Shown here: positions 333 to 32,900 of the stretch, piece after piece
How positions within the stretch are numbered: position 1 is the stretch's first letter
Layout of the letters: each line of letters begins with the position of its first letter
Source of the DNA: Styela clava
Taxonomy: Eukaryota
DNA: 64,000 nucleotides
Direction of reading: 5' to 3'
Assembly (NCBI RefSeq): GCF_964204865.1
Contig: NC_135254.1
Coordinates: 10,788,001 to 10,852,000 of the forward strand
Position numbers and translations under genes: made by a program
Notes under the pieces: model-generated
Told to the model about the DNA's origin: nothing
The model's database searches: none
Seen by the model: the letters and a program-made list of their open reading frames with translations, nothing else

Positions 333-3300
333 GCCGCTGTTGACGAAATATCAATTCATGGATTCACAACTTACACTGCACATGCTATCAACAAAACAGT
401 GAATGAAGATTTCATGAGATCTGATCGTTTTTATGATGCTTCAGTGAAGAAAGTCATTATTTTATTTACAGATGGAAGGTAATATCTTGTGGGAACAATG
501 TCTGAATACACGTAAAATGCACCTTTGAATCGTATCGTTAACTGTTGTTAATGTTTTTGTTATTATTGTTAATGTTCACGGTTCATGTAATGGTAGTTAG
601 CAGAGTTCTTTTGATATATCCGTATATTTAGCCCCTTTGTTTTTCAACTTGGGTTTCTGCGCGATATATATTATTTTTATACCATCAAGATATTAGTTGT
701 TGAAAATCTAAATAAATGTTATTTCAAAGCTGATTACTACTTTATTATTTACCAAATTATTCTAATCTTAGACATCCAAAAATTAAGAAGTAGTATAAAA
801 CCGTTTTTGTTTTGCTCGATTTATTGAAGGTATGCTCGTGTAACAAGTCTTAAATATGTATGTAGATTGTAGATGGTTATAGATAATTTTTTAAATCTTT
901 TGAAGATCTACCGACAGAAATGATTTGCTTTCGTCAGCAAAATATGCTCGGTCAAATGGGATTACTATATTTGCAGTTGGTGCTGGAGGTTATGTAATGG
1001 AGGAATTACAGGTAATCTGAAAAGTTGTAACAAATTGAAATTAGAGAAATTTTTGGTTTCAATATATTATAGCATTTCTACCTTTTGTCTAATCATTATA
1101 TTTCTGTGTATTAAAGATTGTTCATCAACAAGACTGAGAAAGTATAACTAAATTAGTTATCAGGATAAAACTCTTTTTGACTGAGATTGATAAGTAACAA
1201 TGTAGGCTACTGTACTTGTTTAAATGTTGTTTACATATATGAAAACAAGAATACCTATAAGCCATATTTGCATGATAATTTCTTTCTAACAAAATGTCTA
1301 TAATTCTAGCCATTAATTTGTATTCCGTGATTAGATAAGTTAGAACTCTATTAAGTAGTATTTTAAAATATTGAATAGTCATCATAAGCATTGCATGATT
1401 CACCGATAAATTCAACTAATATGCATATGCAATAAATACATGCACGCGATTTACATATAAAACAAGCCGGTAGACGCCCAGAATCTGCACTGATACTTGA
1501 GGCCGGAGGTTCAGGAAAACGTTACCACACATGCAAAATAACAGATCTATAACGACAGTGTACTGCGGAACTGCCAGTTCATTTGAACGATGCGCGGCTC
1601 TTCAGCATCTCAGCTTTGGCGGTTTTCTGTGTTTAATTGTCAAAACATATTTACTTGTATTCCAAACTCCTGAGGTTTCCCCAGTTGTAAAGTATCGAAA
1701 TTAAATTACGAAATATTCTTCTACAGCAACATCCAGCAACATCAATTTTAAGTGCATTTACTTTCAATCGTTTGATATTAGAGCATTTTGTGCTCTTTGC
1801 AAACGATTGCGGGAGTGCTAGCATAACACACTGCACTTTATGAGTGATTGTCTGTGTTTTCTCGTTTGCAATGAATTTTTCTTTAGGAATATTGACTAGT
1901 GACGCTATGCTTCGCGTCTTTTGCCACCAATCACGTGTTGCCTGTGCTTGAAAATATACAGCGCTAGGATCGAGGGAAGGGACGTGCCAAACTTCTCTGC
2001 TGTCCAGTATGAGGTTATGATAGGAATGCCCCATAACTCCAAATCAATTCGCGGAATAAACAAATTATAGATGTTGTTATAAATGAGAATGAATAACTTG
2101 AAGGTCACGTATGAGGAGAATGTTTGTTGTATAATTGCGATATATCACTATGTGTTGGCATGTAATAAGACTCCGGCATCCCTTTTAATTTAGCATTCAC
2201 TGGTATGATTGTCTCCATTACGATTTTAATATTCATGGTTTTAGCAAATTGTATTTATGTCTTTGTGTTCATTTTTACCGACATAGTTGAATTGGGATCA
2301 TATGAGTAGGAAGTATCAAATAAAACGGTAACAAAAATATTTTTTTAGTAACGAACAAGACCTAACTTTGTATAGCTTGGCTGCATCGGATGTTTAAACC
2401 GAAACTGGGACAATCGTAAAATACCAACATGTAAAACTCCGCTGGCAAATAAGTTTCATATACTTTGACAGTAACTTTTATTCACAGATTATTGCAAATG
2501 GCCAGATCAATAACAATGAACGAGTGATTACAGTTTCAAATTTTACTAGGCTGAATACTACGGTAGACATTTTAAAGCAAGGTATATGTGCTATCCAAGG
2601 TAATGTTGATATTAATAGTCAGTTTTTATTGAGGCTGCTACGACATGTTAGTAGCATATAATTTCGAACTACGTTTTCAAAATATTTTTTGCGCCCGAAT
2701 CTGATATTGAGCCAAGACACTATAATAATTAAATGTTCCACATTTCAACATCATAAGCTGAAATGATACTTGATGGTTTTTTGTTTAAATCATTGGATTA
2801 TAAGATGAGAGGCTTTTTGCAGGCTACCACAACATAATCAACGATTGAAATTTATTTTCTCGTTTTCGAAAAGCATTTCGTTCAATGCGCAGAGCTAATA
2901 ATAACTCATTTCCTACAGATTTTATAGCATATAATATATAAATTAACATTCACCACAAGGTATAACTGCTGAAATGTTCAAATTAATAAGGGAATTATAT
3001 AAAATTCAAAAAAATATTTACATTCGTTTATAGTTCCCTTCATAGTGTCTCGCTACACTTGCACAACTTCATCGTTAGAAGTTCAATGGGAAACAACTAC
3101 ATTTAAGTCGGTCTTCTCATACAGACTTCAAATTCAGGTTACATTTATAAATAGAATGAAAATCATTACATTGGTCTAAACACTTTTACTGTGCGCTAAA
3201 ACTTGCCATTTTATGCTAAATATCACATTTATGTATTTAACTTATAGGATCTCAAGACCAAAGAAATCAAGAAGACAAGCGTTCAATTACTCATGAAAAA

Positions 3301-3508
3301 GGAACCAACAATAAAAATTCACGAAGAAAACACATCTCCGGAGTTTGCTTGCGTCACTACGACAAATTTGTATATTTCAAGCAACTACGAAATCGTTGTT
3401 GAGCAAATATCGGCAAAAACAAACAATCAAATAAAAACCATATCCAAAGTTCTTCACAATGCAAATGGGAAGACTATTATGCGGTTAACGTTTCTTGACT
3501 TTGTCTAG
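333..3508 (+). CDS. VWA1: VWA-FN3 protein, 5'-partial (exons 4-8: 333-478, 906-1011, 2488-2599, 3034-3137, 3248-3508)
   Basis: GT-AG exons join in frame: AAVDEISIHGFTTYTAHAIN...KKVIILFTDGR, STDRND...GITIFAVGAGG (VWA C-half), then TTSSLEVQW...YRLQ...NL..SNYEIVV (FN3-like). Paralogous to the two complete copies downstream. Confidence 0.85.
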
Positions 3509-5752: not shown

Positions 5753-8700
5753 TTAATTGATGTACGGATGTTCTTTTGTTGTGCTATTATTCATTTCTTC
5801 GTATTGATGATCTCCGTCTTTTATTTTCTCATAATTATGCGGGATTTCATAATTTTCTTCTTTCTCTTCTCTTAACTCATAATTTCCGGAGTTCAGTTGT
5901 GATGTTTGAATTTCATCAAAGTTTTCATAATAACTCGGGACGTCATTAACAACCCTATTCATCTCTGAAAGACGTTGTGGTTGAGTTGCGATTTTTTGAG
6001 AATTCCTTCAGTAAACAAAAAATAAGTTAGAATTAATTAATAAGTAGGATTTTAAATAAGAAACATTGGATTTGTTTTCGGAATTGCTTCTACCATAGAG
6101 GAGTTAGACAAAACAATCGACGAAAATGTTAGAGCCCAGTATTGCAGACATTGTCCCAGACATTGAGATTGCGCATACAGCTGTATAAAGAGACACACCT
6201 TACTGATTCAATTAAGAGTGAATACTCCAAATTTTCGGAAAATATACACATTTTGTTGTAGTATCGAACATTTCTCACCTCATTTTTTTGTTTCTACAAA
6301 TCAGCGAACCAATTCCAAATAGAATGATTGCAAGAATCAATGTGACTATGGATGAAATAATTGCAACCAATAAATTGTCGTGGCCTGCAATATATTTCAA
6401 CATATAGTAAGAAGAAGCATAAACGTTAAAAAAATTATCAGCATTGAACACAGGTTAAACATGAGAATCAGAAAGTCAGTGAGCATTTTATGTAACCACA
6501 AAATAGTAGTTTTAAAAACTCTGATTTTGTGCACTTAAGACTAATGTCTCTTATAATTTGTAAGCTATATAATCTTACCACAAGAAGTCGTTGTAGTAGT
6601 AGTGATTGCACTAGAGGGAAAGAAAATGTTTATCTTCGTAGATTCTGTGTTATTTGCATTGGCAGACAATGTGGAAGTATGTGTCATGTCATTGAGAGTT
6701 GTAAATTTATGATAAATATTTGTTGTTGTCATTTCAGCAGGCGCCGCGGTGGACGTTGTACTACAGGCAGTGTCTCTTGAACAATTGGTCGTCTGAAGAA
6801 AGTAATTGTGTTTAGCAATTTTTCGATACAATATATGTACGATAATATTTGTATATTCCAACATTTATTTAAATCCGAAGTTTAATGGTTGAACGTTCTT
6901 CAAAAAGTTAAACAAATTTAAAAATGCTCACAAAAATATTAATTCACACGCTTATGAAAAATAACGTCGGGCGCCCTGAATAAGAACTACTAGATATTCA
7001 CTTTTACGACTGCGGCTTATACGCTGTGAAATAGTAAAAACTATTCACACAACATAGAATGATGATCCTTTTTTTTTGAACCTTTTAGAAAATCAGAAAT
7101 TATTAACTTACTACAAATAATGGCATTTTTTTTATTATTTCTTACCTCAAAATTAGAACCAATGCAAATATTGGGCCCCGTTCTTCCCGAGTCAATGCAT
7201 GTTCGATTACGTACTTTCATCATTGAGCTGCAGTTACATGTACTCAACGATGACCAGGTTTCCCAGTATCTTCCTGCACAGTGTAAAGATTTAAAACAAA
7301 AGTTTTTTTGCCTGTTTTGATTAGAATGGCTGTATTTTTGTACGTAGTAAATAGGTTTAAACTTAAATAGGAAAAATTGCCAATTGCTTCTTATTCGCAA
7401 TAAACCCTTCGAAACTCTACAAATATCGATGACTTGCCCATACACGCCTTCTCAAGCTGTAGTGCAATACGTCCGCAAACATGGTCGGCGGAGAAAGACG
7501 CAAACGATAAGCCATTAAGTGAACCACTCCGTGTCGACGAGAAGTCCAACACTCTTGCACATTGTCACATCCCTCATGAGATTCGAACCAGGGGCGACTA
7601 TACCATTGGGCAAGGTAGGCTAAAGCCTTGAAGCCTCTAACCTCGTAGGCCTTAACAATCAATTTTAAGCTCATATTCACTGTAAATCCTTTTTGAATTG
7701 TGAAGCCTTCAGAGTTCCAGAATAATGTCACTTTAAAACTTTATATTTTTATTATTCACGGTAATAATTCCAAATATTTACCGATTGAAAGATTAAAAAA
7801 TTTGAAATATGGCCGAATAAATGATTTTGTAATAATACATCAACTTGAAATCCCTATTATGTTATATCCCATGGTTTAAATTTGTCCCAGATTCGAACCT
7901 GCATTCCAGCCGATCTAAGTATATTCTCCATTATTGTATTAATGCACTTGTTTTGTCGAATTTACAAGCGGTGACCGGGCTCCTGATGCAAATGTCTTTA
8001 GATTGTAGTAGGCCCGTGAGAGATGTTACATGATTTTTCTTTTTTTTTACTCAAAGCGTCTCCCTGATAACTCAGATAAACATTCCTGTTAAAATCTTAC
8101 GACTTTAGTGTTGGTACTAAGTTGGCGATATAGTTGCACAATGACAGTGAAACTTGAAGCAAACATTATAATAATCATTTATGCACTAATATTTAATCAA
8201 GAGTAGTTAGTTTTGAACGGAATATTTATGATAGAATTCATAGTCGCACTCACTAGGAATAAAAAAAAATCGTATCTGATTAAAATACGGGCGGTCGCTG
8301 AAATGCCAAGTGCCACTGAAATCATACCGTATTTTGTTGGCGCAAAGAGCAACAGCGAATACCTGTTGATGCGATACTTGAAGTTATTTAAATTAATGTT
8401 ATAAAGTTTATATAAACTAACGATCAGTAAACATTGGTATGATTTAAATGAACTAAATTAAAGTCAATGGCATTAAAATACATAAATAGTTATTTGTATA
8501 AAGAAAAAATGACATAATCTACAAATTAAGTAGACTTATTACATTAAAAGTTTGTTACCGATTAATCGTTGACATACAAATTCAGTTGGTGCATTCGCAG
8601 CGCAATCGACGTCATACCACGGTACATTTGCAAAATACGCGTTAAACCACCCCATAGCACCACAAGATTGGGTACTCTCACTAGAAGGTTCTCCTGAGTT

Positions 8701-9379
8701 CCAGTTAGTGTAGGTTAGTTCTGAATTGTCATTCCATATGAAGGTATTACTTGTGCCAACTTCCTTCAATCCAATATAAAATCCATAGGGTTGTCCTGTG
8801 CACAATAAAATGCCTTATCTTAGGGTAACGTTTTGTCGTGTGTAATATTTATCCAATATGAACATGGCTGATTGGGGCTGTTGAACATAATTGGAAACAT
8901 GTGCGAACACTTGAATACTGATGAATTAAGAATTCATAAACCAATGTATGGGGATTTCTCGCGCAAATCCCAAAACCCATGAGCAAAAGATTCTAATGAC
9001 CATGATGATAAATAACCTTAAGTAAATTCATTCAGGGATTTGAAATAAAAAGTGAAATGTCCTATTTACCTGAGGTAGCTGAGACTTGATTCTGAATAAA
9101 CGTTTGAATCTCGCTCGTTTTAATCATTGCCATCTCACCATCATTGTTTTTACAGAATGTTTCACCATCGGCATATGGTTTTATATCATCTTTTCCGGAT
9201 ACGTAATATTGGTAACTTCCAAATGCATTCCACTCACCTCTACCTGGTTCGCAAAAATAAAAAGTTTATGAATAAGCAAATAATTTGAAAGACATGATAT
9301 ATAGTATATACCAACCTGCGTTAACGACAGCAATCATCCAAGGAAATAATCCAATGTATATAAAAAGTTTCTCCTTCAT
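5753..9379 (-). CDS. Receptor A1: signal peptide-CTLD1-TSP1-mucin stalk-TM-acidic Tyr tail, ~391 aa (exons 9379-9316, 9243-9070, 8795-8559, 7273-7146, 6792-6579, 6384-6279, 6005-5753)
   Basis: Exons are phase-compatible and total 1176 nt. Signal MKEKLFIYIGLFPWMIAVVNA; CTLD (FC..GEMAMIK, FYIGL, WNSGEPS, WYDVDC, FVCQ); TSP1 (WETWSSLSTC..RNRTC); Thr-rich stalk; TM LLVAIISSIVTLILAIILFGIGSLI; tail motifs YENF, YELR, YEIP, YEKI, YEEM, YIN. Confidence 0.88.
7420..7915 (-). mobile_element. tRNA-derived SINE fragment, interrupted by a MITE
   Basis: Reverse-strand B-box GGTTCGAATC; body resembles the SINE at ~33950-34225. Boundaries approximate. Confidence 0.55.
7589..7890. mobile_element. hAT-like MITE
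   Basis: Starts CAGGGGCG and ends with degenerate GTCCCAG; perfect 8-bp TSD attcgaac (7581-7588 and 7891-7898). Confidence 0.6.
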
Positions 9380-11745
9380 TTACGCGGCTAATTATCTATC
9401 ATTTCTAACTTTCCCCATAACATTACAATTTGAATACAAAAATTGAAATAAAACAAGAATGGTGTGTATTTGCGAGCTGAGAACGTTTCCATCTTCTTCA
9501 TCACAAAATTGAGGATACTCAAAATAGTGTTTGATTAGGTTTAAAAACTAACAACAAATTTGTCTATATACCGTGACTCAACGTCCTGACTGTAAAGGCA
9601 GCTATGTTTTCATGCAGCAGAGAACCCTGTGGAAAACTAACTAAATAAACTATCCATGACAACATTAAAACATCAAAAGCTATGACCGATTAGATAACTC
9701 TACTAAATTTCTTCCAAAGCTAATAATACAATACACGCAAAACTTATGAATGAATGATTTGATTGCCCATAAGTACATTGAATCTAATTATTCGAGAATT
9801 TTCATTATTATTATCAGTACACTGCGACTAATTATCAAATTTCTAGCCACATTACTTTCAGTATCAGAAGAATGATGCAGCTGAAACCCTAATTCGACTC
9901 GCCAGGATGAAATCGTAAGCAATATGATCTAACATTTGTAAGATCAGTCAGTTCTTATCTTACAATGCCTAAGCCTAATATGAGTAATAAAGGTAATATT
10001 TTTATAAATGTAAAAATAAATAAAGATTTTGTGGGGGACAGAATGAAACTTTCTATTACGAGTGGGATATTTCCATAACCTTTTAGTTACAACGTTTTTG
10101 AAATGACTGCAAAGAGAAGATTAAAGATGAATATGCTCCAAAAGACGATACCTATTACAAAGCTAATTAGCAATGTTATCATATTATTCAGTCACTTATG
10201 TTGATGTTATTTTCGAGCGAACCTTATTCATACAGAAACATAGCGGTATTCTGAAAACTGACAACACTCAGATATAGGTATGTGAAAAATTATAACAGGG
10301 TTGACCTAATACTATTTATTGGAATTTCTAGCGCAAATAAGATGGTTATTATATTGAAAATACATATCTGAATCAGATTTTAATATACGAATTGTTTTCA
10401 TATGAAATTCTTGATTCTGGTTTCGCCAATCAAATCGATTTATGCGTTTTGGTTTCTACTGCAGAAGCCATACGATAACCATTACTATGGCCTTCTTACT
10501 ACGGAAATGCATGTCGAAAAAAACAACAACGGAAAATGAAGCAGAACGAAGATGGAAATGACACGTACCACAACTATTAGAATAATACATGAATATCATG
10601 ACAACTTTATAAGCAAAGCCAAGTAAAGCGATGAATATCGTGGACTATACTAGAGTTTTAATCTAATAAAAGTTTAGTAATCTCTTGTGACCGACTGCTG
10701 TGCTATCGTGAATGTCAAAAAAATTATTTAACCATTATTAAAAAAAAACTATTTGATATATGTAAAAAAACTATTCATTCATAAAATAATAAATCCATGA
10801 GTTCAAATCATTTGCGTTTTGTGGAACAAAAAAAAATAATCATAAAATTCCGAAATTTGTGTTGAAATAAATGAACGATTGTTGGTAAATGAGATGAATT
10901 CAGGTTTTAAGTTACACAAAAAAAAATTAAATTATATGTAACAACATGATTTCTCGAATATCATTTTTTTCCTAAGGGGTGTAATTAGACACTTTTATTT
11001 TCCATTGCAGAAATGAGAGTAACATTACTATGATGACTTGTGCAACAAACACTATTTTCTGAGAGTAGAAGTGTGAGCTACATATTTAGTGACGACTTGT
11101 GTTTATTTTGTATGTGTGTGTGATTCGTTCAATCTATTCGATTTTGAGCCAGTTTTGGGGAAGTTTAACGAAATTTGATTCAAAAATTACGATTATATAT
11201 TGTAAACTGTATTTTAGAGATACACTAAGATAACTGTTTACGTACTGACGTTTGCGCAAATGATTCACTGGAATAATTAGTCATAAAAAATGAACCTTGG
11301 TGATCCCCTCGCATATAATTGATCACAGTATAGTTAAATCTGTATTCAAGTTGCATTTGTTTGCATTTTTGTTTATCAGTGCATATTATAGCCACCTGTG
11401 CTGTATATTTAAAAATATGAAAATTTCGCATTGTGACTAAATATCTCAAACCGAAATTAGTATAGCGATACCAAACAGTCATATGTAAATGGGGCATTGG
11501 AGTATGTATCAAGCGCACGTATTTAACTTATTAGACATATTTTCAATTTCAATAAAATATGAATGAATAATATACTAGTGGCAGAAGTAACTGAATGCCA
11601 AGGATTTATCAATTCTTTGGAACAAGTTTTTTTTTAATGTTTTGGCATTTTCATTATCATTCTGTTTAACATATTTTTCAGAGCAATCATCCGCAAAGCA
11701 TTACAATCTATATTTGAATTTTGTCAGCTTATAGGATTTAGAAGA
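9380..11745. promoter_or_regulatory. Divergent (head-to-head) intergenic region between receptor A1 and VWA2
   Basis: Lies between outward-facing ATGs at 9379 (-) and 11746 (+); alignable along most of its length with 39579-41926. Promoter function is inferred. Confidence 0.5.
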
Positions 11746-14700
11746 ATGAGAATTGAATCAATATTTTTGTTTATTCTTCTTCAATACCCGAGGCATCTGA
11801 ACGCAGCAGGTATTATTTTATTGTTATGACTTTTTCAGGAAATTTGCTAGAAACAAAGTCATTCATTCAAGGAAAAGGGAGCTTGATCACTGATCAATGT
11901 TAGTGCAACCACGAAACGCCATCAAGAAATTTTGAGACGTTAAGAGATTGAAGCATAGAATTGAGCGTTGGTTAATACCGATGGGCATGAGGCGTAAAAC
12001 TAACTGAATTTAACGGCTGAAAACTTTTAGAGGGACAATATTCAAAGATTCAAAAGAAAATTTTAAAAGCGGTAACAACGGTTGTCTGACAATGTGAATG
12101 AGTTTAGAAAATATAGGATTACATTACATCTCAAATATTAATTTATTTTGCCAGCATGTCGTGAAACGCCCATGGATCTTGTATTTGTGCTGGATGGATC
12201 GGGTTCCATCAGAGATGAGAATTGGGAGCTTATTAAGTCATGGGTCAAGTTGGTAGCAGAAAATTATGACTTAGGCGGATTAACACAGATTGGCATCGTT
12301 CAGTTCTCACACTGGTTTCCAAATGAAAGGTAAGCTTAGAAAGATATAATCATTCAACAAATCAACGTCAATAAAGTAAGATTTTCATTTTATTCATTTT
12401 GTAAGCCGAATTTATAATTTTTCTTTAAATTATTCAAAGCAACTGCTCAATCAATTAAAATTAATTTACCTATAAACAGCTGCCATGCCATGAATGATTT
12501 TTTTCAAGCGTCAGACCATGAATGTAGCTTCAAAAATTTTCTGACTTAAGTAATGAGCTGTGTTAAATATTGTAAAATTTTTGGACATGTTAGTGGACAT
12601 AACGATCGTTTCGTTATTATGTTATTGTTGTTCTTGTTGTTCTTTGTCATAGAAAAAAAAATCGTTTTTCTCTTTGATCACTGGACCAATCGCTTTGAAA
12701 TTTAAGTGCCTAATTTTTTGCTAGAAGGCTATTACTTTGATTTATTTTAAATATTCAAGTGAGCTGTATAAAATTCGTTATTTTGTGTGCTATGACGTCA
12801 TCAAAGTTTGCTACCATGTGGCGCTACGTTTCCATATATTGAGCATAGCTCTCTTGTTTTAATTACCCAAAAAGTGTTAATTTTAAACTTTGCCATTTTG
12901 TTGTTCCACTTCGCTTCGTGTTTTCACTGCTTTTATTTGAGTACAGTCAGCATACATTCTTCCAAAATCATTTTCGGCTTTTCTTTGGGTTTTCGAATCC
13001 ATTGTCATTCAAACACAAAATATGATAAAATGATTTTCATTTTTTTTAACAGCGCACAGCCATATTTAAAAACTGAAATACAGCTCGGAAAACTGAAGAC
13101 TGAAGCCCAATTCAAGGTAAAATATTCATCGAGCGTTGACTACCGCTGAGAGGGGTAGCGTCACGGTACGATCAGACGAGAGTGCTTGCTGATAATGTCT
13201 CAAGCATGGTAGAATAAAAAGTATTCTTCTATAAATAAAATACAATGGTGAAATTTAGAGTTAGTTATTGGGCGACATAGGTGTCAAAAAAAATTTGAAG
13301 AAAACAGCAATATCATTCGTAAAATCAAAAATACTAAACACCAAAATTCAGACGGACTTCGTGTGTACACGAAATGTAGTTTCCCAACAATGCTATTGAG
13401 CTAGTGTGGAGTCACGTTCTATGCAGAATAGAATTTAAAGGAAAATTTGTCGTATGATTTATCTTATTAAAAAGATTTGTTCACAAATTTGTGATATTTG
13501 AATATATCAAAATGCAATTAGCTTCAAAATAATAACTTAAACTGAGTATTCCTTAGGAAGCTGTTGACGAAATATTAATTCATGGATTCACAACTTACAC
13601 TGCACATGCTATCAACAAAACAGTAAACGATGATTTCATGAGATCTGATCGTTTTTATGATGCTTCAGTGAAGAAAGTCATTATTTTATTTACAGATGGA
13701 AGGTAATAACTTGTCTGAACAATGTCTGAATACACGCAAAATGCACCTTTGAAACGTATTGTTAACTGTTGTTAATGTTTTTGTCACTATTGTTAATGTT
13801 CACGGTTAATGTAATGTAAGTTAGCAGATTTCTTTCGATATATCCGAATATTTAGCCCCTCTGTTATTCAACTTTGGTTTCTGCGCGATATATATGGTAT
13901 TTCAAAGATAATTACTCAGAATTATTATTTCGTTTTATTATTCACTAAATTATTCTAATCAAAGTGATGCCCGCATAAGAATTCTTAGTTATTCTTGTAC
14001 AGAAATTTTTAATTTATTTGAAGATCTTACGACAGAAATGATTTGCCTTTGTCAGCAAAATATGCTCGATCAAATGGGATTACTATATTTGCAGTTGGTG
14101 CTGGAGGTTATGTAATGGAGGAATTACAGGTAACTGAAAAGTTGTGACAAATTGAAATAACTGAGAAAAAATAACTAAGTTAGTTATCAAAATAAAACTC
14201 TTTTTGACTGAGATTGATAAATAGCAATGTATTATGAATGTTTAAATATTGTTTCTTTTTGGGGATTTGTGAGTGAGATTCGCTTATGTATATTCTATGC
14301 TTCTCAGTTCCGGGTTTTTCACAAAATATTTTATTTAAATAATATTTTTGTGTTAAATAATTAGGGATGTTGCATGGAGAAATAATGTATCGCGGGAACT
14401 CAAAGCTGATATACGACCGGCACCGAGTACGTCTTCGCATTTGCAAAATGCTCGGTGACGTTCAATATAATCGCTGAAGAGCCCCAGTGGTGATGACGTT
14501 TGTGGCTGCGAGCCATCGCACAATTGTGTTGGATTTGTTCGAAATTACTGGATGGTGTGCGATATAGTAACTGTGGAAACACGCATACATAAAAGCCATA
14601 TTCGCATAATAAATTTCATTATAACAAAATGTCTAAAACTCTGGCGATTAATTTGTATTTCTTGATTAGATAAGTTAGGACACCATGATTCAGTAGTATT

Positions 14701-16124
14701 TAAAAAAGTTGAATGGCCATTATACGTTGTTATGTTTCATCAATAAAGTCAACTAATATGCATTATGCACATGCACGTGGTTTGCATTTAAATCAAGCCG
14801 GTAGACACCCAGGATCTCCACTGATACATGAGGCTCGTTCTCTAGCAAAACGTTAAGCCATGCATGCAAAATTGCTGATCAATATCTGCAGTGTATTGCG
14901 GAACTGTCAGTTTATTTGGACGCTGCGCGGCTCTTCAGCATATCAGCTTGTGCGATTTTCTGTGGCTAATTGTCAAAACATGTTCACTTGAATTCCTAAC
15001 TTCCAAAGTTTCCCCAGTTGTGGAATATCGAAATTAGTTTACGAGAAAATCTACTGGAGCAACATCCAACATTTTGTATTCACGTTTAACGACATAGTTG
15101 AATTGGGATCATATGAGGAAGTATCAAATGAAACGGTAACAAAAATATTTTTAGTAACGAACAAGACCTTTTATTTACAGATTATTGCTAATGGCCAGGT
15201 CAATAACAATGAACGAGTGATTACAGTTTCAAATTTTACTAGGCTGAATTCTACGGTTGATATTTTAAAGCAAGGTATATGCGCTATCCAAGGTAATGTT
15301 GATATTAATAGTCAGTTTTTATTGAGGCAGCTACGATGTGTTAGTAGCATATAATTTCGAACTACGTTTTCAAAATATTCTTTGCGCCCGAATCTGATAT
15401 TGAGCCAAGACACTATAATAATTAAATGTTCCACATCTCGACGTCATATGCCGAAATGGTATTCGATTTTTTTTTTGTTAAAATCAGTGGAATATGAAAT
15501 GAGATTATTTTTGCAGGCTACCACAGCAAAATTAACGATTGAAATTTGATTTCTCGTTTTCGAAAAGCATTTCGTTCAATGCGCAGAGCTAATAATAAAT
15601 AACTCATTTCCTACAGATTTTATGTCATATAATATAGAAATAACAAGGTATAACAGCTGAAATGTACAAATTAAAGAGGGAATTATATAAGATTCAAAAA
15701 AAAATATTTATATTTGTTTATAGTTCCCTTCATAGTGTCTCGCTACACTTGCACAACTTCATCGTTAGAGGTTCAATGGAAAACAACTACATTTAAGTCG
15801 ATCTTCTCCTACAGACTTCAAATTCAGGTTATATTGATAAATATAATGAAAATCATTACATTGGTCTAAACACTTTTACTATGCGCTAGAACATGCAATT
15901 TTATGCTTAATATCACAAATATGTATTTAACTTATAAGGATCTCAAGACCAAAGAAATCAAGGAGACAAGCGTTCAATTACTCATGAAAAAAGAACCAAC
16001 AATAAAAATTCACGAAGAAAAGACATCTTCGAAATTTGATTGTATCACTACGACAAATTTGTATATTTCAAGCAACTACGAAATCGTTGTTGAGGAAATA
16101 TCGGCAAAACAAATAATCAAATAA
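11746..16124 (+). CDS. VWA2: signal peptide-VWA-FN3, ~318 aa, last exon frameshifted (exons 11746-11809, 12155-12329, 13053-13116, 13557-13702, 14024-14129, 15181-15292, 15724-15827, 15939-16124)
   Basis: Signal MRIESIFLFILLQYPRHLNA; MIDAS DLVFVLDGSGS, T (GFTTYT), IILFTDG; IFAVG; FN3-like exons 7-8. A 1-nt shorter A-run near 16106-16109 gives an early TAA relative to copies 1 and 3. Confidence 0.85.
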
Positions 16125-16595
16125 AAACCATATTCAAAGTTCTTCACAATGCAAATGGGAAGAATATTATGCGGTTAACGTTTCTTGACTTTGTCTAAGT
16201 TATATTCCGGATATCAGACATTTTCAAAAAAATATATTTTTCACACATACCAACTTAAAACACATGTAAATCTATATCTGTGTGCGTGTTTTTTCATTCA
16301 GTGTATCGGTGGAAACCAAAATTAAACATATTAGGACAATCCATCTATTATATGCTGATAGCCACCACCACATTCAGAGTGTAATAAACTGGGTTAGGAA
16401 TGCGGAACCGGAAATAATCTGGTCCACCGAGCTCTGTTCTTTATGTCTTGACTACTTCCTTATGTAATTGACTACTTCCATGGTTTCTTTTTTGGAGTGA
16501 AATTGTGGATGACACTTCATAAAAATAACGCCAACTGACAGCTCCAAACTTGATTGGAATTCTGATTCGAATTGATAATACATTCAATTATTCAG

Positions 16596-16666
16596 GCTGT
16601 ACTTGGGCATATGACAATGGCAAGAAAAGCCAACACTGCTTGAAAACACAATCAAACTCAGTTCAG
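16596..16666 (+). pseudogene. Orphan exon downstream of VWA2 (GCTWAYDNGKKSQHCLKTQSNSVQ)
   Basis: AG/GT-flanked and homologous to 3877-3947. Confidence 0.5.
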
Positions 16667-18769: not shown

Positions 18770-21700
18770 TCAAGCATCATATTCATTTTCAGGCATTGAA
18801 TTGATGTACGGATGTTCTTTTGTTGTACGATCATTCATTTCTTCGTACTGATGATCTCCGTCTTTTATTTCTTCATAATTATGTGGGATTTCATAATTAC
18901 CTTCTTTTTCTTCTCTTAACTCATTATTTCCGGAGTTCAATTGTGATGTTTGAATTTTATCATATTGTACATAAGAAACCGGGACGTCATTAACAATCCC
19001 ATTCATCTCTGAAAGACGTTGTGGTTGAGTTGCGATTTTTTTAGAAATTCCCCTGTAAACAACAATAAACTTGAAATAATTCACACGTAGGCTTTTGAAT
19101 AAGAAACAATGGATTTTTTTTTTTATTGAATTGCTTCTAATAACATATATTAGCTAAACGTCATCGTGATCGGACGAAAATGTTAGAGCCCAGTATTTAA
19201 GACATTGTTCCAGACATTGAGATTGTTACTGCTGTATAAAAGATTTTATTTAACTTATTCAATTGAGAGGAAATACTCAAAATCGTTTAAAACTTACACA
19301 TTTTATTGTTGGATCGAACAATTCTCACCTCATTACTCTGCATCTACGAATCAGCAAAACAATTCCAAATAAAATGACTGCAAGAATCAATGTGAAAATG
19401 GATGAGATAATTGCAACCAATAGAATGTTGTGTTCTGCAATATATTTCCATATATAATAAGAATCATAAACCTCAATAAATTTATCAGGTGCGACCACAA
19501 ACAACTACCTAACAGTACAGAAAACGGGTTAAATATGAGTTGTAAAAGACAAAAAGTCAGTGAGCATATTGAACCACAAAATAGTAGTTTAGAAAATCAA
19601 ATTATAAGCACTTGAGACTAATGTCTCTTATAATTTGTAAGCTATATAATCTTACCACTAGAAGTCGTTGTGGTAGTATTGATTGCACCAGTGGGAATGA
19701 GAATGTTTATCTCAGTAGTTTTTGTGTAATTTGCATTGGCAGACAATGCGGAAGTATGTGTCATGTCAGTAGGAGTTGTAAATTCATGATATTTATTTGT
19801 TGTTGTCATTTCAACGGTTGAAGGGGTGGGCGTTGTTTCACAGGTAGTGTATCTTGAACAATTGGTCGTCTGAAGAAAGTAATTGTGATTTAGCAATATT
19901 TCGATTCAATATATGTACGATAATTTTTTATTTATTTCAGCGGTTATTTAAATCTGTATAATGTTCTTCAAAAAGTTTAAAAATATAAAAAAGCTCACAA
20001 AAATATTGATTCACATGCTAATGAAAAATATCGAAAGTGAATAATTCAGATGAATCAGAAACCTTTTTGGTAATTCGTCAATAGCCAGGTCCTGCGACCT
20101 GAATCAGAAATATTGAAGATTCACTTTTGAAAGTGCAGCTTATACATTAATATAGTAAAAACTAATAAAAAAAACATAGAATGATAATCATTTTTCTTTT
20201 AAGCACTTTAGAAGATCAAAAATTGTTAAATTACTACAAAAAGTGGCTTTCCCTATTTTTTACCTCAAAATTAGAACCAATGCAATTATTGGGCCCCATC
20301 CTGCTCGAGTCAATGCATGTCCGATTTCTTACTTTCATCATAGAGCTGCAGTTACATATACTCCACGATGACCAGGTTTCCCAGTATTTTCCTACACAGT
20401 GTAAACATAATCATACGTACGATTCCTCTTTTTATTGATTTTATTCGTGGTCCATATTCCAACTATATCATATTCTAAACTTTATGCTCTTTTAATTTGT
20501 TGAATCTTACAACTAAATATAGATTCAGAGCCAGGTTTTTTTTGTCATAATTGAAACTAAGTTAAGTTGGAGTTCGTGTAAATTTGTATTCCTTTTCGCC
20601 GTTTGAATTCGTCTCAACTCGCTTGTCACCAGACATTTTACTCACCGATATGGCGTTGACACACCAATCCTTTCAACCCTGTTGCTCCAGTGTCACAGTC
20701 CATCGTATGCCATAGAAGATTTGCGTCATAAGTTTTTTGTTCACCTATCGATACACAAGTCTGTGTTCCACTATCAGTATCATGATTGTTTGGTTCTCCT
20801 TCATCCCAACGAATGAATGAAAGGTTTGTTCCGTCGTTCCATTGAAACATCGACTTTGATTTGTCATAAACAAGTCCAATGTAAAATGTGTATGGTTCTC
20901 CTGTAATAAGACATATCATATCGTCACGCTAATAATCGAATTGCGTAAGTCATTTTTGGCGATTTCGAGTTTTTTTTATAAATTAGGTATTTATGTAATG
21001 CTGCGCACCTGTCTGTTAAATCAGATTTTATTTTAAGAATTCCGAAACCCATAAAAATGGAGATTTAGTATTACAGGCACATTTGTGCAATTGTTTCGTC
21101 ATAATGAATTATCATTGTTACCGCAGGACTATTGTGACGTCACAAAGGCAAAATAACCTCGGCCAAGTATTTTCGAGTTTTTGCATCTCGGATTCTAGCT
21201 TAGCGCGTATTAATTTGAATTTTTACTACAGTATAGGAAGACGTGCACTTGTGATATTCACTGTCCGAGTCCAATTCACCTTGGTTGGCTTTTATATTGG
21301 GTGCATTGCTGTTTTATTCTTTATATTTATTCTTAGTCTAATTTCGGTGGATGTGCAGAACATGTTATATCGATGAAATATATATTTTTAAACATAAAAA
21401 ATAATGTAATTGAAACTGATTAGCTATTTTGGGGATTAGACATTGTAGATACTGAGAATTACATTCGTTTTTGGAATGTTTTGTTTTCAGGACTTGTGCA
21501 TATAGTAAAGATGCAAAATTGCGTATGTCCCCAAGTCATACACACATTTCTGCCTAAGTCACAGTGCGCCATTATGACGTCACAACCTAAATCCGGCTAC
21601 GATCAAAACATTGAACCATGGCAAATCATTGACTCTCAATGGCACAACAATATCATTAGGAAGTTTTTTACGTTTTTCTCAAAACTGCTAAAAATGACTT

Positions 21701-24494
21701 ACGCAATTCGGTTATTAGCGTGACGATATTGTTTTATACTGCTAGGGCACGTCTAGACAAGTGTTTTAGCGATGAACAATCGGTTGAAGCGTTAGCTCTA
21801 ACTGTGTTGGCATTGCAGATTACGCATCTTCGTTTCAAAAGCCATCCCACGTCACCCGTGGGTGCAATGAATTGATCAGACAACGCCAAACAGTTATAGA
21901 ATCTCCCTATATATTGTTAGATATCAGTGGTTTTTGTACAGGTCCGCGTTCGCGTCCTTGTGTGTGTCATATCCCACAGGGATCGGACTTATTGCATTTC
22001 GTTCGTAATGCCATCAACGACCGAAGTTATTATATCGGCGCAATACATACACATTCATTGACTTTCAATACTTACAATAATGCACGTACCTGATCCATCA
22101 AAAATGAGTGCTTTTATAAATCTTTGTGTTATTTTATTCTTTATTAATGCTAATTCGCCTCCTTCATTTTTGCAAAATGTTTTCGAATATTCATAAGAAC
22201 TTGAACTACCACCCGGTGAAACATAATATTCATAACTTCCATTGGGAAACCAGTTTCCTCGACCTGTTTCACAAATGAAATACCAAATATTTGAAAAATA
22301 CCAGAATCTCGAAACATGCGCAGCGAAAATGCACGGTGGAACGAGATGCCATCAGGTATTGCAGGCGCTTGGTTTTCTTTAAATACTAAAGTCAAAAATA
22401 AAGAGAAGCGGTAATATAGGGACTATTTAAAATTTTTTGGAATATTAGCTATTTTATCACCTTTTGATTAGAGCGAATAGCATAGTTAAAGGCAACGGCG
22501 TGAGTCAGTGGAAACATTCGTAACATAATTACAAAAAGACGTGTGTTCGACGTGACTTATGTGAAAGAGTTTAACAGAGCCCATTGTTCATTTCCCAATC
22601 TCTTTTTAGCATTAATTGTAATAATTGGTCAGTTTTCGGGAAATGAAGACGTAATAATATAATTTTAAAATGAGTTTTCCATTCTCACCTAGTTGAGTCG
22701 GAGCTGTGTTCATAAAGGCACAGGTAGCGGATGGCGTGCATATCTAAAAACAACGTTCAAATTGTTCATTTGGGCATGCAAGTATTTTAACCGAGCCAAC
22801 TATAATAAACAAGCATTTTGAACGGAAAGTCAATCATAATAAGTTATATATCTAAAAAACGTTTACTTCAGACTGTGTTGCCGTGTCATTGCATAAGTAT
22901 GGACCAATTCTTCCGCTGTCAACACAAGTTCGGTTAGGCTGTCTTATTCCCGGGCATTCACAACTTCCCCAAGATTCCAATGATCCCCAATTCCAGCCTG
23001 CAGAAACATACAGAGTAAAATAGGAAGTATATTCTTTACAACTAAGTATTCTGGATCAATTTTGTATCAGTAAATGTAAATCAAGATGAACTTTTAATAC
23101 AGTATGAGCGGAAGAAACAATAGCATAGCTGTGCAAGGTATATAAGTAGTGATAAGATCAAAAACAGTTAGTTATTTTTGCTTGCAGTAAATTTATGATA
23201 TTTTGAAACTGCTTTCTTTAAACATAATTTATCCTGTTAAATTTAAAATATTGGACCCAGATAACCCAATTCTCAATTTTGCTCAAAGCAAAGTTAGTCG
23301 CACTCATTCGGAATAAAGTATACTAGTATCTGATAAATATACGGGCGGTCGCTAAAATGCCAAGTGTCATTGCAATTATACAGTATTTTGGTGGTGCAAT
23401 AAACACCAGCGGATGCCTGCTGATGCGTTACTATAAGCAGTTCAAATTAATGCTATAATGAGCATAATCATGGGCAGTAACTCTTGACATGGTTAAAATT
23501 TACCAAATTGGCGTTAAAATATATAAATAGTTATTTGCATAAAGATTATGACTCTTGTGTTTTACAAAGTTCAGACGACCATTTATTGCATGAAAGATTA
23601 GTCCGTATTCACAAAAAATACATAATCTACAAATTAAGTATACATTTATTACAAACAAATGTTGTTACCGATTAATCGTTGGCAGACAAATCCAGTTGGC
23701 AAATTCGCAGCGCAGGCGACGTCATACCACGGTAGATTTGCATAATACGTGAGAAACCATCCCATAGCAACACACGGTTGGGGTCTCCCACTAGAAGGTT
23801 CTCCTGAGTTCCAGTTAATGTAGGTTAGTTCTGAATTGTCATTCCATATGAAGGTATTACTTGTGCCAACTTCGTTTAATGCAATATAAAATCCATAGGG
23901 TTGTCCTGTGGATAATGAAATGCCTTAGCTTAGGGTAATAAAACGTTTTGTCGTGTGTAATATTTGTCCAATATAACCATGAATGATTGGGGCTGTTGAA
24001 CATAATTGGAAACATGTGCGAACACTTGAATACTGATGAATTAAGAATATTAAGAATTCATAAACCAACGTATGGGGATTTCTCGCGCAAATCCCCAAAC
24101 CGATGAGCAAAGGATTCTAATGACTATGATGATAAATAACCTCAAGCAAATTCATTCAGGGATTTGGGATAAAACGTGAAATATCCTATTTACCTGAGGT
24201 AGCTGAGACTTGATTCTGAATAAACGTTTGAATCTCACTCGTTTTTATCATTGCCATCTCACCATCATTGTTTTTACAGAATGTTTCACCATCGGCATAT
24301 GGTTTTATATCATTCTTTCCGGATACGTAGTATTGGTAACTTCCAAATGCATTCCACTCACCTCTACCTGGTTCGCAAAAATAAAGAGTTTATGAATAAG
24401 CACATAGTATGAAAGACCGGATGATATATCATATATACCAACCTGCGTTAACGACGGCAATCATCCAAGCAAATATCAAAAGTTGCTCTTTCAT
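18770..24494 (-). CDS. Receptor A2: SP-CTLD1-TSP1a-linker-CTLD2-TSP1b-mucin-TM-acidic Tyr tail, ~602 aa (exons 24494-24443, 24367-24194, 23905-23669, 22997-22867, 22743-22689, 22263-22090, 20900-20646, 20391-20264, 19869-19656, 19434-19329, 19052-18770)
   Basis: Eleven phase-compatible GT-AG exons, 1809 nt. CTLD1 has EPS/WYD and CTLD2 has EPN/WHT; two TSP1 exons; TM ILLVAIISSIFTLILAVILFGIVLLI; tail motifs YDKI, YEIP, YEEI, YEEM, YINS, YDA. Confidence 0.9.
20921..21726. mobile_element. Tc1/mariner-type MITE (~806 bp) in A2 intron 6
   Basis: ~36-bp TIRs tcgtcacgctaataatcgaattgcgtaagtcatttt / aaaatgacttacgcaattcggttattagcgtgacga with TA on both sides; empty site in B2 near 52890; second copy at 27827-28645. 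Confidence 0.88.
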
Positions 24495-29971: not shown

Positions 29972-32900
29972 TTATTTAATATTGTCAATATTTGCATATG
30001 GGTCATCGTTTACTTCAATGTAAGTCCCTTCAGCACCTCCCGTGACATCGGAATTCTGATCAGTTTCAGGTTTATTGACCGTTGCAAAAGTTACTTCATT
30101 GAAGTTTGAAGAATCTTTTTTTGGGGGTTTCTGTACAACAGCAAGAGTCACTTTATTGTCGTCTCCATCTGAAGAAGTTTCCTGTTTCACGGGGACTTTC
30201 GATTTGGTATCCTGCACGGTAGCGTAAGTCGGACCAGACACTAGTTTTTCATCAAATGAATTTTCTGATTGCGACATTTTTTTAGAATCTTCAACGTTGT
30301 GTTTTTGAACTGTTGCGTAAACCACAGGGGAGTTTTCGTCAGGGTAACCGGAAACAATAATTTTTTCGCTCTTTTTTTGCTTCTTAACGACAGCGTATTG
30401 AGTTTCTGATACATCTGTCGCATCCGAATCTTTTGAGTATTTGAATAACTTTTTCGATTTTGTTTTGTTTACAGCAGTATATATAGCATTGTTGTTGCCT
30501 TCTGTGGTCACATCGTTTATCTGATTCTGATGGTTATCAGCAATGGCGCAGAGGGAATCTGGCCCGTTTGATGAGTCAACTTGAACTTCGGGTAAGAGAG
30601 AATTATTGTCTGCGTGTCCATCATGGGTTACAAACGTTTGATAACGAAGAGTTTCCGTACTTTGAGAATTGTCTCGACCTGATTCCACATCTCCGGGATC
30701 TGTAGCAGTAAAACGTGTTAGTTATATATATTAATATGAAGCACCTGTTTTGACACACTTGAAGCATTTTCGTTTGGAGGGGATGTAAAATAGGTCGGAA
30801 CCATTCAGAATAACTGACTACAGATTTGAACACGGACTCATAACCTATTACCTACTCGAGTTACTTATATTAATATATTCACCAAAACTGAATGCATGAT
30901 AAAGTTCATAAAAAACAACAATTCTGAATTTTTACGTGGAAGATTCTATTTAATATCAGTTGAGATCGTTGCAACAGGTTGTGATTTAGGTGATAATACA
31001 TAGAAATGAGTATTTCCTCTTATTTGTCATACAATTACTAGCATTTGGTAGACAGTAAAGTATAGGAATTCATCAACCCAGATACAAAACGTTGACGTAA
31101 TACTTTAAATGAAGTTACATTAACTTACGCTCTGACATTATATCTCTCGGATTAAGTTGATCTTCCATTTCTAACCCTTCATTGTAATTGCCGCGCTCTC
31201 CTGTGTTTATGATTCCGTGTCCTCTTCTGAAAGCAAAACTTCAGATTATATACATTCTCTGTGAAATGAGTGAACCCTTAGAAGAATATTTGATATTTGT
31301 TCACTATTCATAAGAGATGTAATGTCATAATGTTGGATATATTACCTCTTTTTGAGTTGCTTTGAAAGTATAAAAACAACGATAAGTGCTAAAAGAAGAA
31401 ACCCTCCGATAGTTCCCGCGACTGGTCCAATGATTGATGTTTGTGCAGCGGGTGTAGATGGACAAAGAATACCAATCGTTGAAATGTCAGAAATTTCTGT
31501 GTAAGATAATATAAGAATTGATATCTGTATAATATAAATGATCAGAAATCTAGTTTAATACATTATGTTCATTTAGACAAGCTAACACATTTACGCGAGC
31601 TGAAATTGAATTTAAAATATTTTGCAACGCTCACATTTGAAAATTAATCGTACGAAAGTTAATTGACTGCTCCATCCTGATGTTATATATTCTAATTGGT
31701 CTTTTGATCGATGAACAAATCTTGGCCACGTTCTCACGTGCATTTTAATAAATCACTCAATTGTAGAAAAGGTGAAACTGATTGTATCAACTTATGATTT
31801 GTTATGGCAAACTATTTCTAATGCTGTTATAATCATACCACGTTACGTTTGTTGGTATTTTTTGAGTTTGGTTTAAGGCGGATTTTGCCAATATTAACTC
31901 TGATCAAATATAGATGGTTGCTTATATGCAGCTAATAGTATAAGATCATGCCCGAAAATCATAAATTGCTGTTATTTTGCGCGTTGCGTGTTGATTGTTA
32001 CTAGATTCTGGATTTATAGTGACTGTAGAATTCTGCTCAAAGCATGTAGTGTCGGCAGTAGACGTAGAATCAGTGTTTGTGGGAGTAGAATCAGATTGAG
32101 TAATTCTTCCGGTCGTTGTTTCCATTACCGTTGTTGCTACAGACAAAATGGGCGATGTGACTTCAAAACTACTTCCTTCGCTTGTTTCGTACGTTGATTG
32201 TATAATTGTACTTGTAGGGATAGTGGTTTCCAATTAGCTACTTGGTATTTCTGCGCTACCGAAAGTTGTCATTTCATTTGCCATCGTCGTCCTCCTCTCA
32301 TTTGTCTGTGTGAGAGACATGGTTGAAGGCCCTGTAATCATCGTGCTTTCCGTATTAAAAACGTGGCTATTCGGTGATCTGGACAGTTGAATGGGCAAAA
32401 ATTTATGCCCGTTCCTTCTGTGCTATTAATTTTAAATTAAGATGTGAATTAAAAAGTCACTGTCGTCATTTGGTCTTGTTCCGCACCTGCAAATGAAGAA
32501 GAAATGCCTTGCAAGTTAAAGGTTGCGTTTGCCACCACATACACACCGGCGGTCATGGTAGTCATTACGTCGATGGGTTCTTCGTTTCTGGACGAGGTGG
32601 TTAACTCACCAGTTGTGGTTAATGGAGATGTTTTTTCCGCAACAATTGTCGTATAACAAGTTGGGTCTTTTGTACAATTTCCAGTCTGTTAAAAATATTA
32701 AATCAAACTAAGGGAAAATTGAAATTGATCACTATTATTACAATTCCCAAACATGACTTTTAAATTGCAAAAGTTTCTGTAACATACCCGGAAAGCATTA
32801 ATATTTTCAATATACAAAGGCTATGATATAGTATCCCTCTGATTGTTCCACCGCCAAAACAATTTAATCATACCGTGAAAATAAGTTCTACGATATACGC

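What the first reader, a model, noticed from the sequence alone, without database searches (positions are those of the whole stretch)
9379..11746. Receptor and secreted VWA-FN3 gene form a repeated head-to-head pair
A1/VWA2 (ATGs 2367 bp apart) and B1/VWA3 (2349 bp apart, 39578-41927) face outward from a homologous spacer, so one activating-like and one inhibitory-like receptor each has its own VWA partner. VWA/MIDAS domains bind ligands in integrins and complement. Linked receptor-ligand or receptor-co-receptor pairs are typical of recognition loci (e.g. NKR-P1/Clr). Inference: a co-regulated two-component module. Co-duplication alone could also explain the pattern, and A2 and B2 lack such a partner.
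Basis: inference. Interest (0 to 1): 0.7.

Follow-up and report, generated by a model that had tools for sequence, protein, structure and literature searches.

The report
Sea-squirt receptor array with shared partner
In the sea squirt Styela clava, a cluster of 24 variable lectin-type receptor genes carries 14 near-identical copies of a likely secreted integrin-like binding protein, each back-to-back with a receptor; the pairing is real, but it was likely copied from one ancestor and reshuffled, so the protein is more likely a shared helper than each receptor's own partner.

Summary
Both ATG distances are exact. The window ends a ~335-kb array of 24 CTLD-TSP1 type I receptor genes and 14 VWA genes plus 2 exon-1 remnants. 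All 16 VWA starts face a receptor across one homologous spacer; 8 of 24 receptors are unpaired.

'Each receptor has its own partner' is not supported. VWA copies are 96% identical and under purifying selection (pN/pS 0.34); the receptor loop is 68% identical (pN/pS 1.57, CI 0.95-2.75). Receptor-side and VWA-side DNA histories are uncorrelated across 13 pairs, with the break inside the spacer, so partners were likely swapped by recombination. Losses are uncoupled. The VWA belongs to the tunicate integrin alpha-I clade with an intact MIDAS; the FN3 label is unproven. Older paralogs of both genes are unpaired in the DNA fetched.

Best reading: one recent divergent pair amplified as a cassette, with a likely shared secreted VWA protein beside a diversifying activating/inhibitory receptor family. 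It resembles Botryllus FF/FcoR head-to-head pairs in layout only. Binding and co-expression are untested.

The parts
5753..9379 (-). Receptor A1 (R21): signal exon 9379-9316, CTLD 9243-9070 and 8795-8559, TSP1 7273-7146, S/T stalk 6792-6579, TM 6384-6279, tyrosine tail 6005-5753 (YxxI-x6-YxxM, YxxM, YxN)
   Evidence: CT..AC joints 8794-9069 and 9243-9316 in guessed-RNA contigs of family members
9380..11745 (.). Divergent spacer, homologous in all 16 pairs. The part up to ~10900 shares history with the receptor, the part from ~10900 with the VWA gene
   Evidence: contigs of three runs fit up to ~9731; one low-depth contig joins 10622 to 11011 by a GT..AG shift
11746..16198 (+). VWA2 (V13): 8 exons; predicted signal peptide, integrin alpha-I-type VWA with MIDAS (DGSGS..T..D), C-terminal all-beta domain; 1-bp deletion near 16105 truncates it to 318 aa in this assembly
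333..3508 (+). VWA1 (V12), exons 4-8; intact 343-aa gene whose ATG lies 1.6 kb before the window, head-to-head with R20, a near-copy of A1
18770..24494 (-). Receptor A2 (R22): two CTLDs, A-type tail, no VWA partner; keeps the first ~1005 bp of the spacer
29972..39578 (-). Receptor B1 (R23 = P0013/P0036/P0037): CTLD, two TSP1, stalk, TM, 279-aa tail with an ITIM (VVYATV) and an ITSM (TQYAVV)
39579..41926 (.). Second divergent spacer, homologous to 9380-11745
41927..46674 (+). VWA3 (V14): intact 343-aa ORF over 8 exons with GT-AG junctions
49518..57260 (+). Receptor B2 (R24 = P0008): two CTLDs, four ITIM-consensus motifs, inverted relative to the other 23 receptors, no VWA partner; keeps ~240 bp of the spacer

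Best explanation
The head-to-head receptor/VWA pairs are copies of one divergent pair that was likely amplified as a cassette, and the VWA gene likely encodes a near-invariant secreted metal-dependent binding protein shared by the whole receptor family rather than a private partner of its neighbour. Shown by calls: 16 of 16 VWA starts face a receptor across one homologous spacer; VWA copies are constrained and near-identical; receptor loops are diverse; the two sides have separate histories with the break in the spacer. Inferred steps. (1) A rearrangement once put a secreted offshoot of the tunicate integrin alpha-I domain back-to-back with a CTLD-TSP1 receptor. (2) Unequal crossing-over or gene conversion in the VWA gene and the VWA-side spacer, the most uniform DNA of the array, multiplied 2-gene (A,V) and 3-gene (A,B,V) units and swapped partners. 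(3) Receptors diversified their ligand loop and exchanged activating-like and inhibitory-like tails, while the VWA protein stayed the same. (4) Shared upstream DNA likely makes both active in the same cells, presumably hemocytes, where the VWA protein would act as a common opsonin or adhesive effector of the response that the receptors switch on or off.
For: Pair census and one spacer. VWA pN/pS 0.34 (CI 0.23-0.52) and 96% aa identity, on the 9 intact of 14 copies; CTLD long loop 68% identity and pN/pS 1.57, against 0.38 for the rest of the domain, on 21 of 24 genes. Mantel tests on 13 of 14 full pairs (R21/V13 dropped as a near-copy): neighbouring receptor-side segments r 0.50-0.87, VWA-side segments r 0.35-0.90, receptor exons against VWA exons r -0.10 to 0.19, none at p<0.01. 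A/B class against VWA-segment distance r -0.04 to -0.08. Spacer divergence follows the adjacent gene (VWA side 0.06-0.07, like VWA introns at 0.05-0.08), so it shows no extra constraint. The youngest duplication ends in VWA intron 3. Seven of 16 VWA units are damaged or remnants, beside both intact and broken receptors. Unpaired receptors keep spacer remnants, R02 up to position 2130, which points to VWA loss; four of them (R10, R12, R14, R16) and R24 match full-length database proteins. The VWA falls in a clade (SH-aLRT 99, 26 of 40 rows) with tunicate integrin alpha-I domains and shares two intron positions checked with an integrin gene 0.9 Mb away. The nearest VWA paralogs have no CTLD neighbour, and the older CTLD-TSP1 paralogs have no VWA of this family beside them, in the stretches fetched.
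Against: At protein level, CTLD-loop distance against partner VWA distance gives r 0.35, p 0.051 on 11 pairs. The three IRDE-type VWAs all face receptors with a WFNAYF loop, though one such receptor faces the other VWA type. All 7 minus-strand B receptors kept a VWA gene or remnant upstream, which could reflect selection on linkage. One pair is broken on both sides (R08/V06). The loop's confidence interval includes 1 (0.95-2.75), and I set its limits by motif after seeing the sequences. Gene conversion could erase real co-evolution. Cell type, co-expression and the opsonin role have no direct data here. An older CTLD paralog at the left edge is itself head-to-head with a factor-B-like gene that contains a VWA domain.
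Confidence: 0.55

Rival explanations
1. Pure passenger: the VWA gene has an unrelated job, for example in tunic or extracellular matrix, and was multiplied only because it lay inside the duplicated block; there is no functional link to the receptors.
For: Seven of 16 units are damaged or remnants. The spacer shows no extra conservation. Its C-terminal domain also ends EGF-CTLD-EGF and EGF-rich secreted-type genes on other contigs. No paralog pairing was found elsewhere.
Against: Nine copies are intact and under purifying selection. Two single low-depth contigs hint that the 5' ends may come within ~660 bp of each other. The domain is of the integrin alpha-I type, and Ciona integrin subunits are described as part of a hemocyte complement receptor (PMC5465252 passages).
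Confidence: 0.25
2. Invariant co-receptor: the secreted VWA protein binds the conserved part of any family receptor (CTLD core or TSP1) and supplies a MIDAS site, while the variable loop reads the target; cis linkage keeps the stoichiometry.
For: An invariant VWA and a conserved CTLD core (pN/pS 0.38) fit a common interface. All VWA genes are linked to a receptor. CTLD-fold proteins are known to bind VWA-fold domains: rhodocetin inhibits integrin alpha2beta1 (PMC5509089, listing and abstract start); the detail that snaclecs bind the I or A1 domain is recalled.
Against: Eight of 24 receptors lack a cis partner and several look intact. Receptor R09 is intact beside a pseudogene VWA, and R13 beside a nonsense VWA.
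Confidence: 0.13
3. Cognate receptor-ligand or receptor-co-receptor pairs: each receptor recognises its own linked VWA.
For: Strict head-to-head layout; two VWA surface types next to the MIDAS (ITNV and IRDE) and a borderline loop-VWA correlation; precedent in another ascidian (PMC12582321).
Against: About 20 distinct loops face two VWA types, 11 of 14 of one type. There is no shared DNA history across the spacer. Activating-like and inhibitory-like receptors face near-identical VWAs.
Confidence: 0.07

Closest known systems
Botryllus schlosseri Fester family / fester coreceptor (FF/FcoR) pairs (PMC12582321: abstract, passages and section 14 read; supplements not seen)
   Same: [quoted passage not shown]
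   Different: There both partners are membrane IgSF proteins, both are diverse, and cognate pairs are co-expressed and co-vary. Here the receptor is a CTLD-TSP1 type I protein and the partner a near-invariant, likely secreted VWA protein with no shared history. 'Styela' does not occur in that paper's main text.
NKR-P1 (Klrb1) / Clr (Clec2) linked receptor-ligand genes (PMC6272133, passages read)
   Same: CTLD receptors, with putative ligand genes intermingled in one cluster.
   Different: The Clr ligands are themselves C-type-lectin-related proteins with shown binding; NKR-P1 and Clr are type II membrane proteins (recalled). Here the receptor is type I, the partner is a VWA protein, and binding is untested.
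Tunicate I-domain integrin alpha subunits (CR3/CR4-like; PMC5465252 passages) and the S. clava two-VWA protein P0043
   Same: Same VWA clade, about 45-52% identity, intact MIDAS, shared intron positions.
   Different: No beta-propeller, stalk or TM; a lone VWA plus a C-terminal beta domain, so it is not an integrin.
Modular co-duplicated cassettes such as human RCCX (C4-CYP21-TNX); recalled, not from a call
   Same: Functionally unlike neighbours are copied as a unit by unequal crossing-over and leave pseudogenes and chimeras; a complement gene lies next to the array.
   Different: Up to 16 units here, with a diversifying signalling-receptor family as the varying member.

Membership tests
VWA domain (PF00092) with MIDAS | Profile match above the cut-off | tested here: met
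   P0026, 115 bits against a cut-off of 23.8, residues 29-210
VWA domain (PF00092) with MIDAS | DxSxS...T...D metal ligands | tested here: met
   DGSGS, TYT and TDG in all 9 intact copies and VWA2; V06 has a stop inside the motif
Integrin alpha subunit | I-domain of the integrin clade | tested here: met
   SH-aLRT 99 clade with Ciona, Clavelina and Styela integrin alpha domains; the clade also holds non-integrin VWA proteins
Integrin alpha subunit | Beta-propeller, leg domains and TM | tested here: not met
   343-aa ORF: signal exon, VWA, 128-aa C-terminal domain, stop; last exon read through by a contig to 16678
Fibronectin type III domain | FN3 profile or fold | tested here: inconclusive
   No Pfam fn3 hit. 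ESM Atlas features give fn3 clusters at 0.84-0.87, a lead only, and TM 0.53-0.56 to fn3 rows. The AF2 model (pLDDT 63) is all-beta with no clear fold match, best Z 8.0 to beta-propellers
Secreted protein | Cleavable signal peptide and no TM | tested here: inconclusive
   Short hydrophobic N-terminus on its own 64-nt phase-1 exon and no TM-like stretch by inspection; no predictor available
Paired activating/inhibitory receptor family | Shared ectodomain with two opposite tail classes | tested here: met
   CTLD1 common to 15 A and 8 B genes; at least 3 label changes on the tree, B monophyly p-AU 0.03
Paired activating/inhibitory receptor family | ITIM consensus in the inhibitory class | tested here: met
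   1-4 ITIMs in 4 of 4 B proteins scanned and 0 in 4 of 4 A proteins (consensus recalled)
Paired activating/inhibitory receptor family | Canonical ITAM or charged TM in the activating class | tested here: inconclusive
   YxxI-x6-YxxM in 3 of 4 A proteins scanned, with Met in place of Leu/Ile
Paired activating/inhibitory receptor family | Opposite signalling shown in cells | not testable with these tools
   needs phosphatase/kinase recruitment assays
FF/FcoR-type cognate gene pairs | Head-to-head encoding | tested here: met
   16 of 16 VWA starts
FF/FcoR-type cognate gene pairs | Both partners diversified and evolving as pairs | tested here: not met
   VWA 96% identical; cross-spacer Mantel r about 0; borderline protein signal p 0.051
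FF/FcoR-type cognate gene pairs | Both partners are IgSF membrane proteins | tested here: not met
   CTLD-TSP1 receptor and VWA protein
FF/FcoR-type cognate gene pairs | Cognate co-expression across individuals | not testable with these tools
   only assembled contigs are available
NKR-P1/Clr | CTLD receptor whose ligand is a linked C-type-lectin-related protein | tested here: not met
   the linked gene encodes a VWA protein (family definition from PMC6272133)
Bidirectional promoter | Divergent start sites within about 1 kb (recalled definition) | tested here: inconclusive
   ATGs 2.3-2.6 kb apart; contigs cannot show starts; two single contigs (depth 2.2 and 2.4, run X1) reach 9880 and ~10540
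Ca2+-dependent sugar-binding C-type lectin | EPN or QPD plus WND motifs (recalled) | tested here: not met
   CTLD1 has EPS, EPH, EPT or QPS and mostly WYD (the R04 and R08 rows there are mis-anchored); CTLD2 has EPN but WHT

The most novel reading that the evidence does not exclude
A solitary ascidian has built a variable recognition system from parts not seen together before: about 20 hypervariable CTLD-TSP1 receptors with ITIM or ITAM-like tails, each expressed from a shared promoter with an invariant soluble integrin I-domain that docks on the receptor as a common MIDAS subunit or bridges it to complement-tagged targets, in a locus flanked by a factor-B-like gene.
Probability: 0.15. Interest if true: 0.85.

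Novelty: new variant of a known kind. Interest (0 to 1): 0.5.

Why it matters
The array is an apparently undescribed paired-receptor locus in a solitary invertebrate chordate. My searches (titles and abstract starts seen) listed no paper on it, and the database names are 'uncharacterized' or by loose similarity. It reaches the head-to-head layout of Botryllus FF/FcoR with unrelated domains. The contrast of a variable receptor loop with an invariant linked protein gives a small, direct test set: two VWA types against about 20 CTLDs. If the VWA is a shared subunit or opsonin, it would be a soluble integrin I-domain used in innate recognition. If it is a passenger, the case shows that strict 16-of-16 linkage can arise without cognate pairing.

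Tried and rejected
Complex prediction of the B1 ectodomain (P0013 22-280) with the full VWA protein (P0026 22-343): no answer, score 0.00 in two runs, alignments not used, controls not folded; counted neither way.

Single-sequence AF2 of P0026: pLDDT 33, unusable. Fold searches with the C-terminal model: no Foldseek match at E<=0.001 and best VIA Z 8.0; FN3 is neither shown nor excluded. The first mixed alignment (A1) misplaced the short exon rows and was not used.

Run search: no RNA holder listed on record. The runs laid are guessed RNA and contigs only; the mid-spacer bins without cover in them say nothing about starts.

A ninth coding exon near 16597 was considered and rejected: a contig reads 15937-16678 unspliced, and VWA3 has a stop there. 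B1 as a pseudogene (stops in the long stalk region) was rejected because the database models use shorter stalk exons.

Conservation in other species could not be tested: no relatives are held for this genome. The three protein searches returned only S. clava (2 of 52, 13 of 15 and 13 of 246 candidates); they are word-limited and weak evidence of absence.

Homology between the pair's spacer and the spacer of the factor-B-like gene: no blastn hit at E<=0.01. One search's spacer split failed on missing anchors and was redone by alignment columns.


Full report
Setting. The window is G000:C5:10788001-10852000. Exon searches return only proteins named Styela clava. I fetched 464 kb around the window and mapped every exon class.

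Observation. The two ATG distances (2367 and 2349 bp), the spacer homology and the missing partners of A2 and B2 are all as stated. The window is the right end of an array at C5:10.51-10.845 Mb. The genome searches give 14 matches for a VWA exon and 24 for a CTLD exon, all in this interval. Two further lone VWA first exons exist. All 16 VWA starts face a receptor ATG, at 2317-2620 bp for the 14 genes and at 1588 and 2354 bp for the remnants; 8 of 24 receptors are unpaired. Order shuffles with strands kept give a mean of 9.2 pairs, and none of 100,000 reach 16. All 16 spacers align, so this is one event copied many times. The array is built mainly of two units, receptor A plus VWA, and A plus B plus VWA.

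The VWA gene. It has eight exons and 343 codons (matching database protein P0026): a hydrophobic first exon, a VWA domain (PF00092, E 5e-33) with a complete MIDAS, and a 128-residue C-terminal domain. Nine of 14 copies are intact. V06 and V09 carry nonsense codons, V07 is decayed, V08 lacks most of the last exon, and V13 (the finding's VWA2) has a 1-bp deletion that no laid contig shows. One intact copy (V01) has a non-AG acceptor at exon 3 in my mapping that I did not resolve. Contigs of guessed-RNA runs bridge VWA introns with GT..AG ends and receptor introns with CT..AC ends; run X5 shows none of these joints among those listed. The nearest relatives are an S. clava two-VWA protein (52%) and tunicate integrin alpha I-domains (up to 50%). 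A quick tree of 40 domains puts it in a 26-row clade with them (SH-aLRT 99), and two intron positions checked match an integrin gene at C5:9.59 Mb. The C-terminal domain has no Pfam hit. It also ends EGF-CTLD-EGF genes on C2 and EGF-rich genes on C3. It is all-beta in a moderate model, and FN3-like only as an Atlas lead.

The receptors. These are type I proteins with one to four CTLDs, TSP1 repeats, an S/T stalk and a TM. A tails carry YxxI-x6-YxxM, YxxM and YxN. B tails carry 1-4 ITIM-consensus motifs, and 3 of the 4 scanned also carry an ITSM. CTLD1 lacks the classical sugar motifs. Its long loop is 68% identical among 21 of 24 genes (R08 and R18 broken, R21 identical to R20), with pN/pS 1.57 (CI 0.95-2.75) against 0.38 for the rest. 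A and B labels change at least three times on the CTLD1 tree, and B monophyly is weakly rejected (p-AU 0.03). This is the pattern of a paired-receptor family; that the tails signal oppositely is inference.

Test of cognate pairing. If each receptor had its own VWA, the two should share history and vary together. They do not. VWA pN/pS is 0.34 (CI 0.23-0.52) at 96% identity. Across 13 of 14 full pairs, segments from receptor exon 1 to position 10900 correlate with their neighbours (r 0.50-0.87), and segments from 10901 into the VWA gene correlate with each other (r 0.35-0.90). Receptor exons against VWA exons give r -0.10 to 0.19, with none at p<0.01. VWA distance is unrelated to A/B class. Losses are uncoupled: intact R09 and R13 face dead VWAs, and R01, with a stop in TSP1, faces an intact one; R08/V06 are both broken. 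Unpaired receptors keep 240-1005 bp of spacer, and R02 a piece out to 2130, which points to VWA loss for most of them. Against this reading, the protein-level loop-to-VWA correlation is borderline (r 0.35, p 0.051, 11 pairs; whole CTLD r 0.16, p 0.22), and all 7 minus-strand B genes kept a VWA or remnant.

Age of the pairing. The two-VWA gene (C5:10.21 Mb), three integrin genes (C5:9.57-9.60 Mb) and VWA hits on C5:18.7 Mb and C13 show no CTLD hit in the 20-70 kb fetched. The older CTLD-TSP1 paralogs (C5:10.48 and 10.85 Mb, C18, C1) show no VWA of this family in the stretches fetched. So the pair likely arose once, at the base of this array. Other species could not be checked.

Promoter. Contigs cannot show starts. 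Receptor contigs of three runs fit to about 9731, and VWA contigs begin at 11688-11698. Single low-depth contigs in one run reach 9880 and join 10622 to 11011 with GT..AG after a 3-base shift. If real, the 5' ends could lie within about 660 bp, but this is weak. Spacer divergence simply follows the adjacent gene.

Mechanism. Shown: one spacer, cassette copying, a constrained invariant VWA, variable receptors, decoupled histories. Inferred: crossovers in the uniform VWA-side DNA drive copy number and partner swaps (the youngest duplicate, 99.7% over 8279 bp, ends in VWA intron 3); shared upstream DNA co-activates both genes; and the VWA protein serves as a common secreted MIDAS opsonin or adhesive effector. 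I put 0.55 on this, 0.25 on a pure passenger, 0.13 on an invariant co-receptor and 0.07 on cognate pairs.

Comparison. The closest system is Botryllus FF/FcoR: head-to-head pairs, ITIM and hemITAM tails, copy-number change by pairs (PMC12582321; abstract, passages and section 14 read; supplements not seen). It matches in layout but fails on domains and on co-variation. NKR-P1/Clr has lectin-like ligands (PMC6272133, passages). Ascidian integrins as complement receptors and an ITAM-bearing hemocyte protein are reviewed in PMC5465252 (passages). Six literature searches aimed at this locus or its layout listed no description of it; subscription papers and supplements of S. clava genome papers were not searched and may mention it. 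The scan's own index had nothing near this place or for this sequence.

Verdict. The receptor array with its invariant linked I-domain protein is a new variant of a known kind. Interest 0.5.

Noticed in passing
L040:400-10000 and L039:58-121 (G000:C5:10.468-10.478 Mb, minus strand): Complement factor B-like gene (LDLa, WAP, Sushi, VWA-like, trypsin exons) at the left edge of the array. Its ATG lies 3172 bp from the ATG of an older CTLD-TSP1 receptor paralog (L039:3293, plus strand), again head-to-head, but with no spacer homology.
   Followed up: partly
window 60800-64000 and L031:1-310: Older CTLD receptor paralog (40-46% to the array's CTLD1; EPN motif) with a TM and a long tyrosine-rich tail. 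Pieces of its CTLD exon lie inside the array at C5:10542688, 10707279 and 10742549 in inverted orientation.
   Followed up: partly
G000:C5:10779696-10787974 versus window 5082-13360: Tandem unit 99.7% identical over 8279 bp (23 mismatches, no gaps): a very recent duplication or conversion, or a haplotype assembled in tandem.
   Followed up: partly
L051:900-4300, L052:4900-7100, L061-L071, L042, L045: The VWA protein's C-terminal beta domain is a two-exon module, usually terminal, shared with EGF-CTLD-EGF genes on C2 (13 hits) and EGF-rich genes on C3 (2 hits); no Pfam family.
   Followed up: partly
L031:1600-8700, L032, L033:300-1200: Tandem copies of CBM21-domain genes and Kelch-domain genes with tyrosine-rich N-terminal stretches directly right of the array.
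   Followed up: no
L078-L080 (G000:C5:9.576-9.600 Mb): Cluster of three I-domain integrin alpha genes about 0.9 Mb from the array.
   Followed up: partly
G000:C5:10619680-10635076 (R09, P0003): A 1456-aa receptor with four CTLDs and internal repeats of CTLD2-TSP1-stalk blocks; domain number varies from one to four CTLDs across the family.
   Followed up: no
window 20917-21729 and 27823-28648; 12578-12860; 36990-37430: Dispersed repeats: an 833-bp element at 91% in two places, a very high-copy short element in VWA2 intron 2 (depth spike in X5), and an inverted-repeat element in a B1 intron.
   Followed up: no
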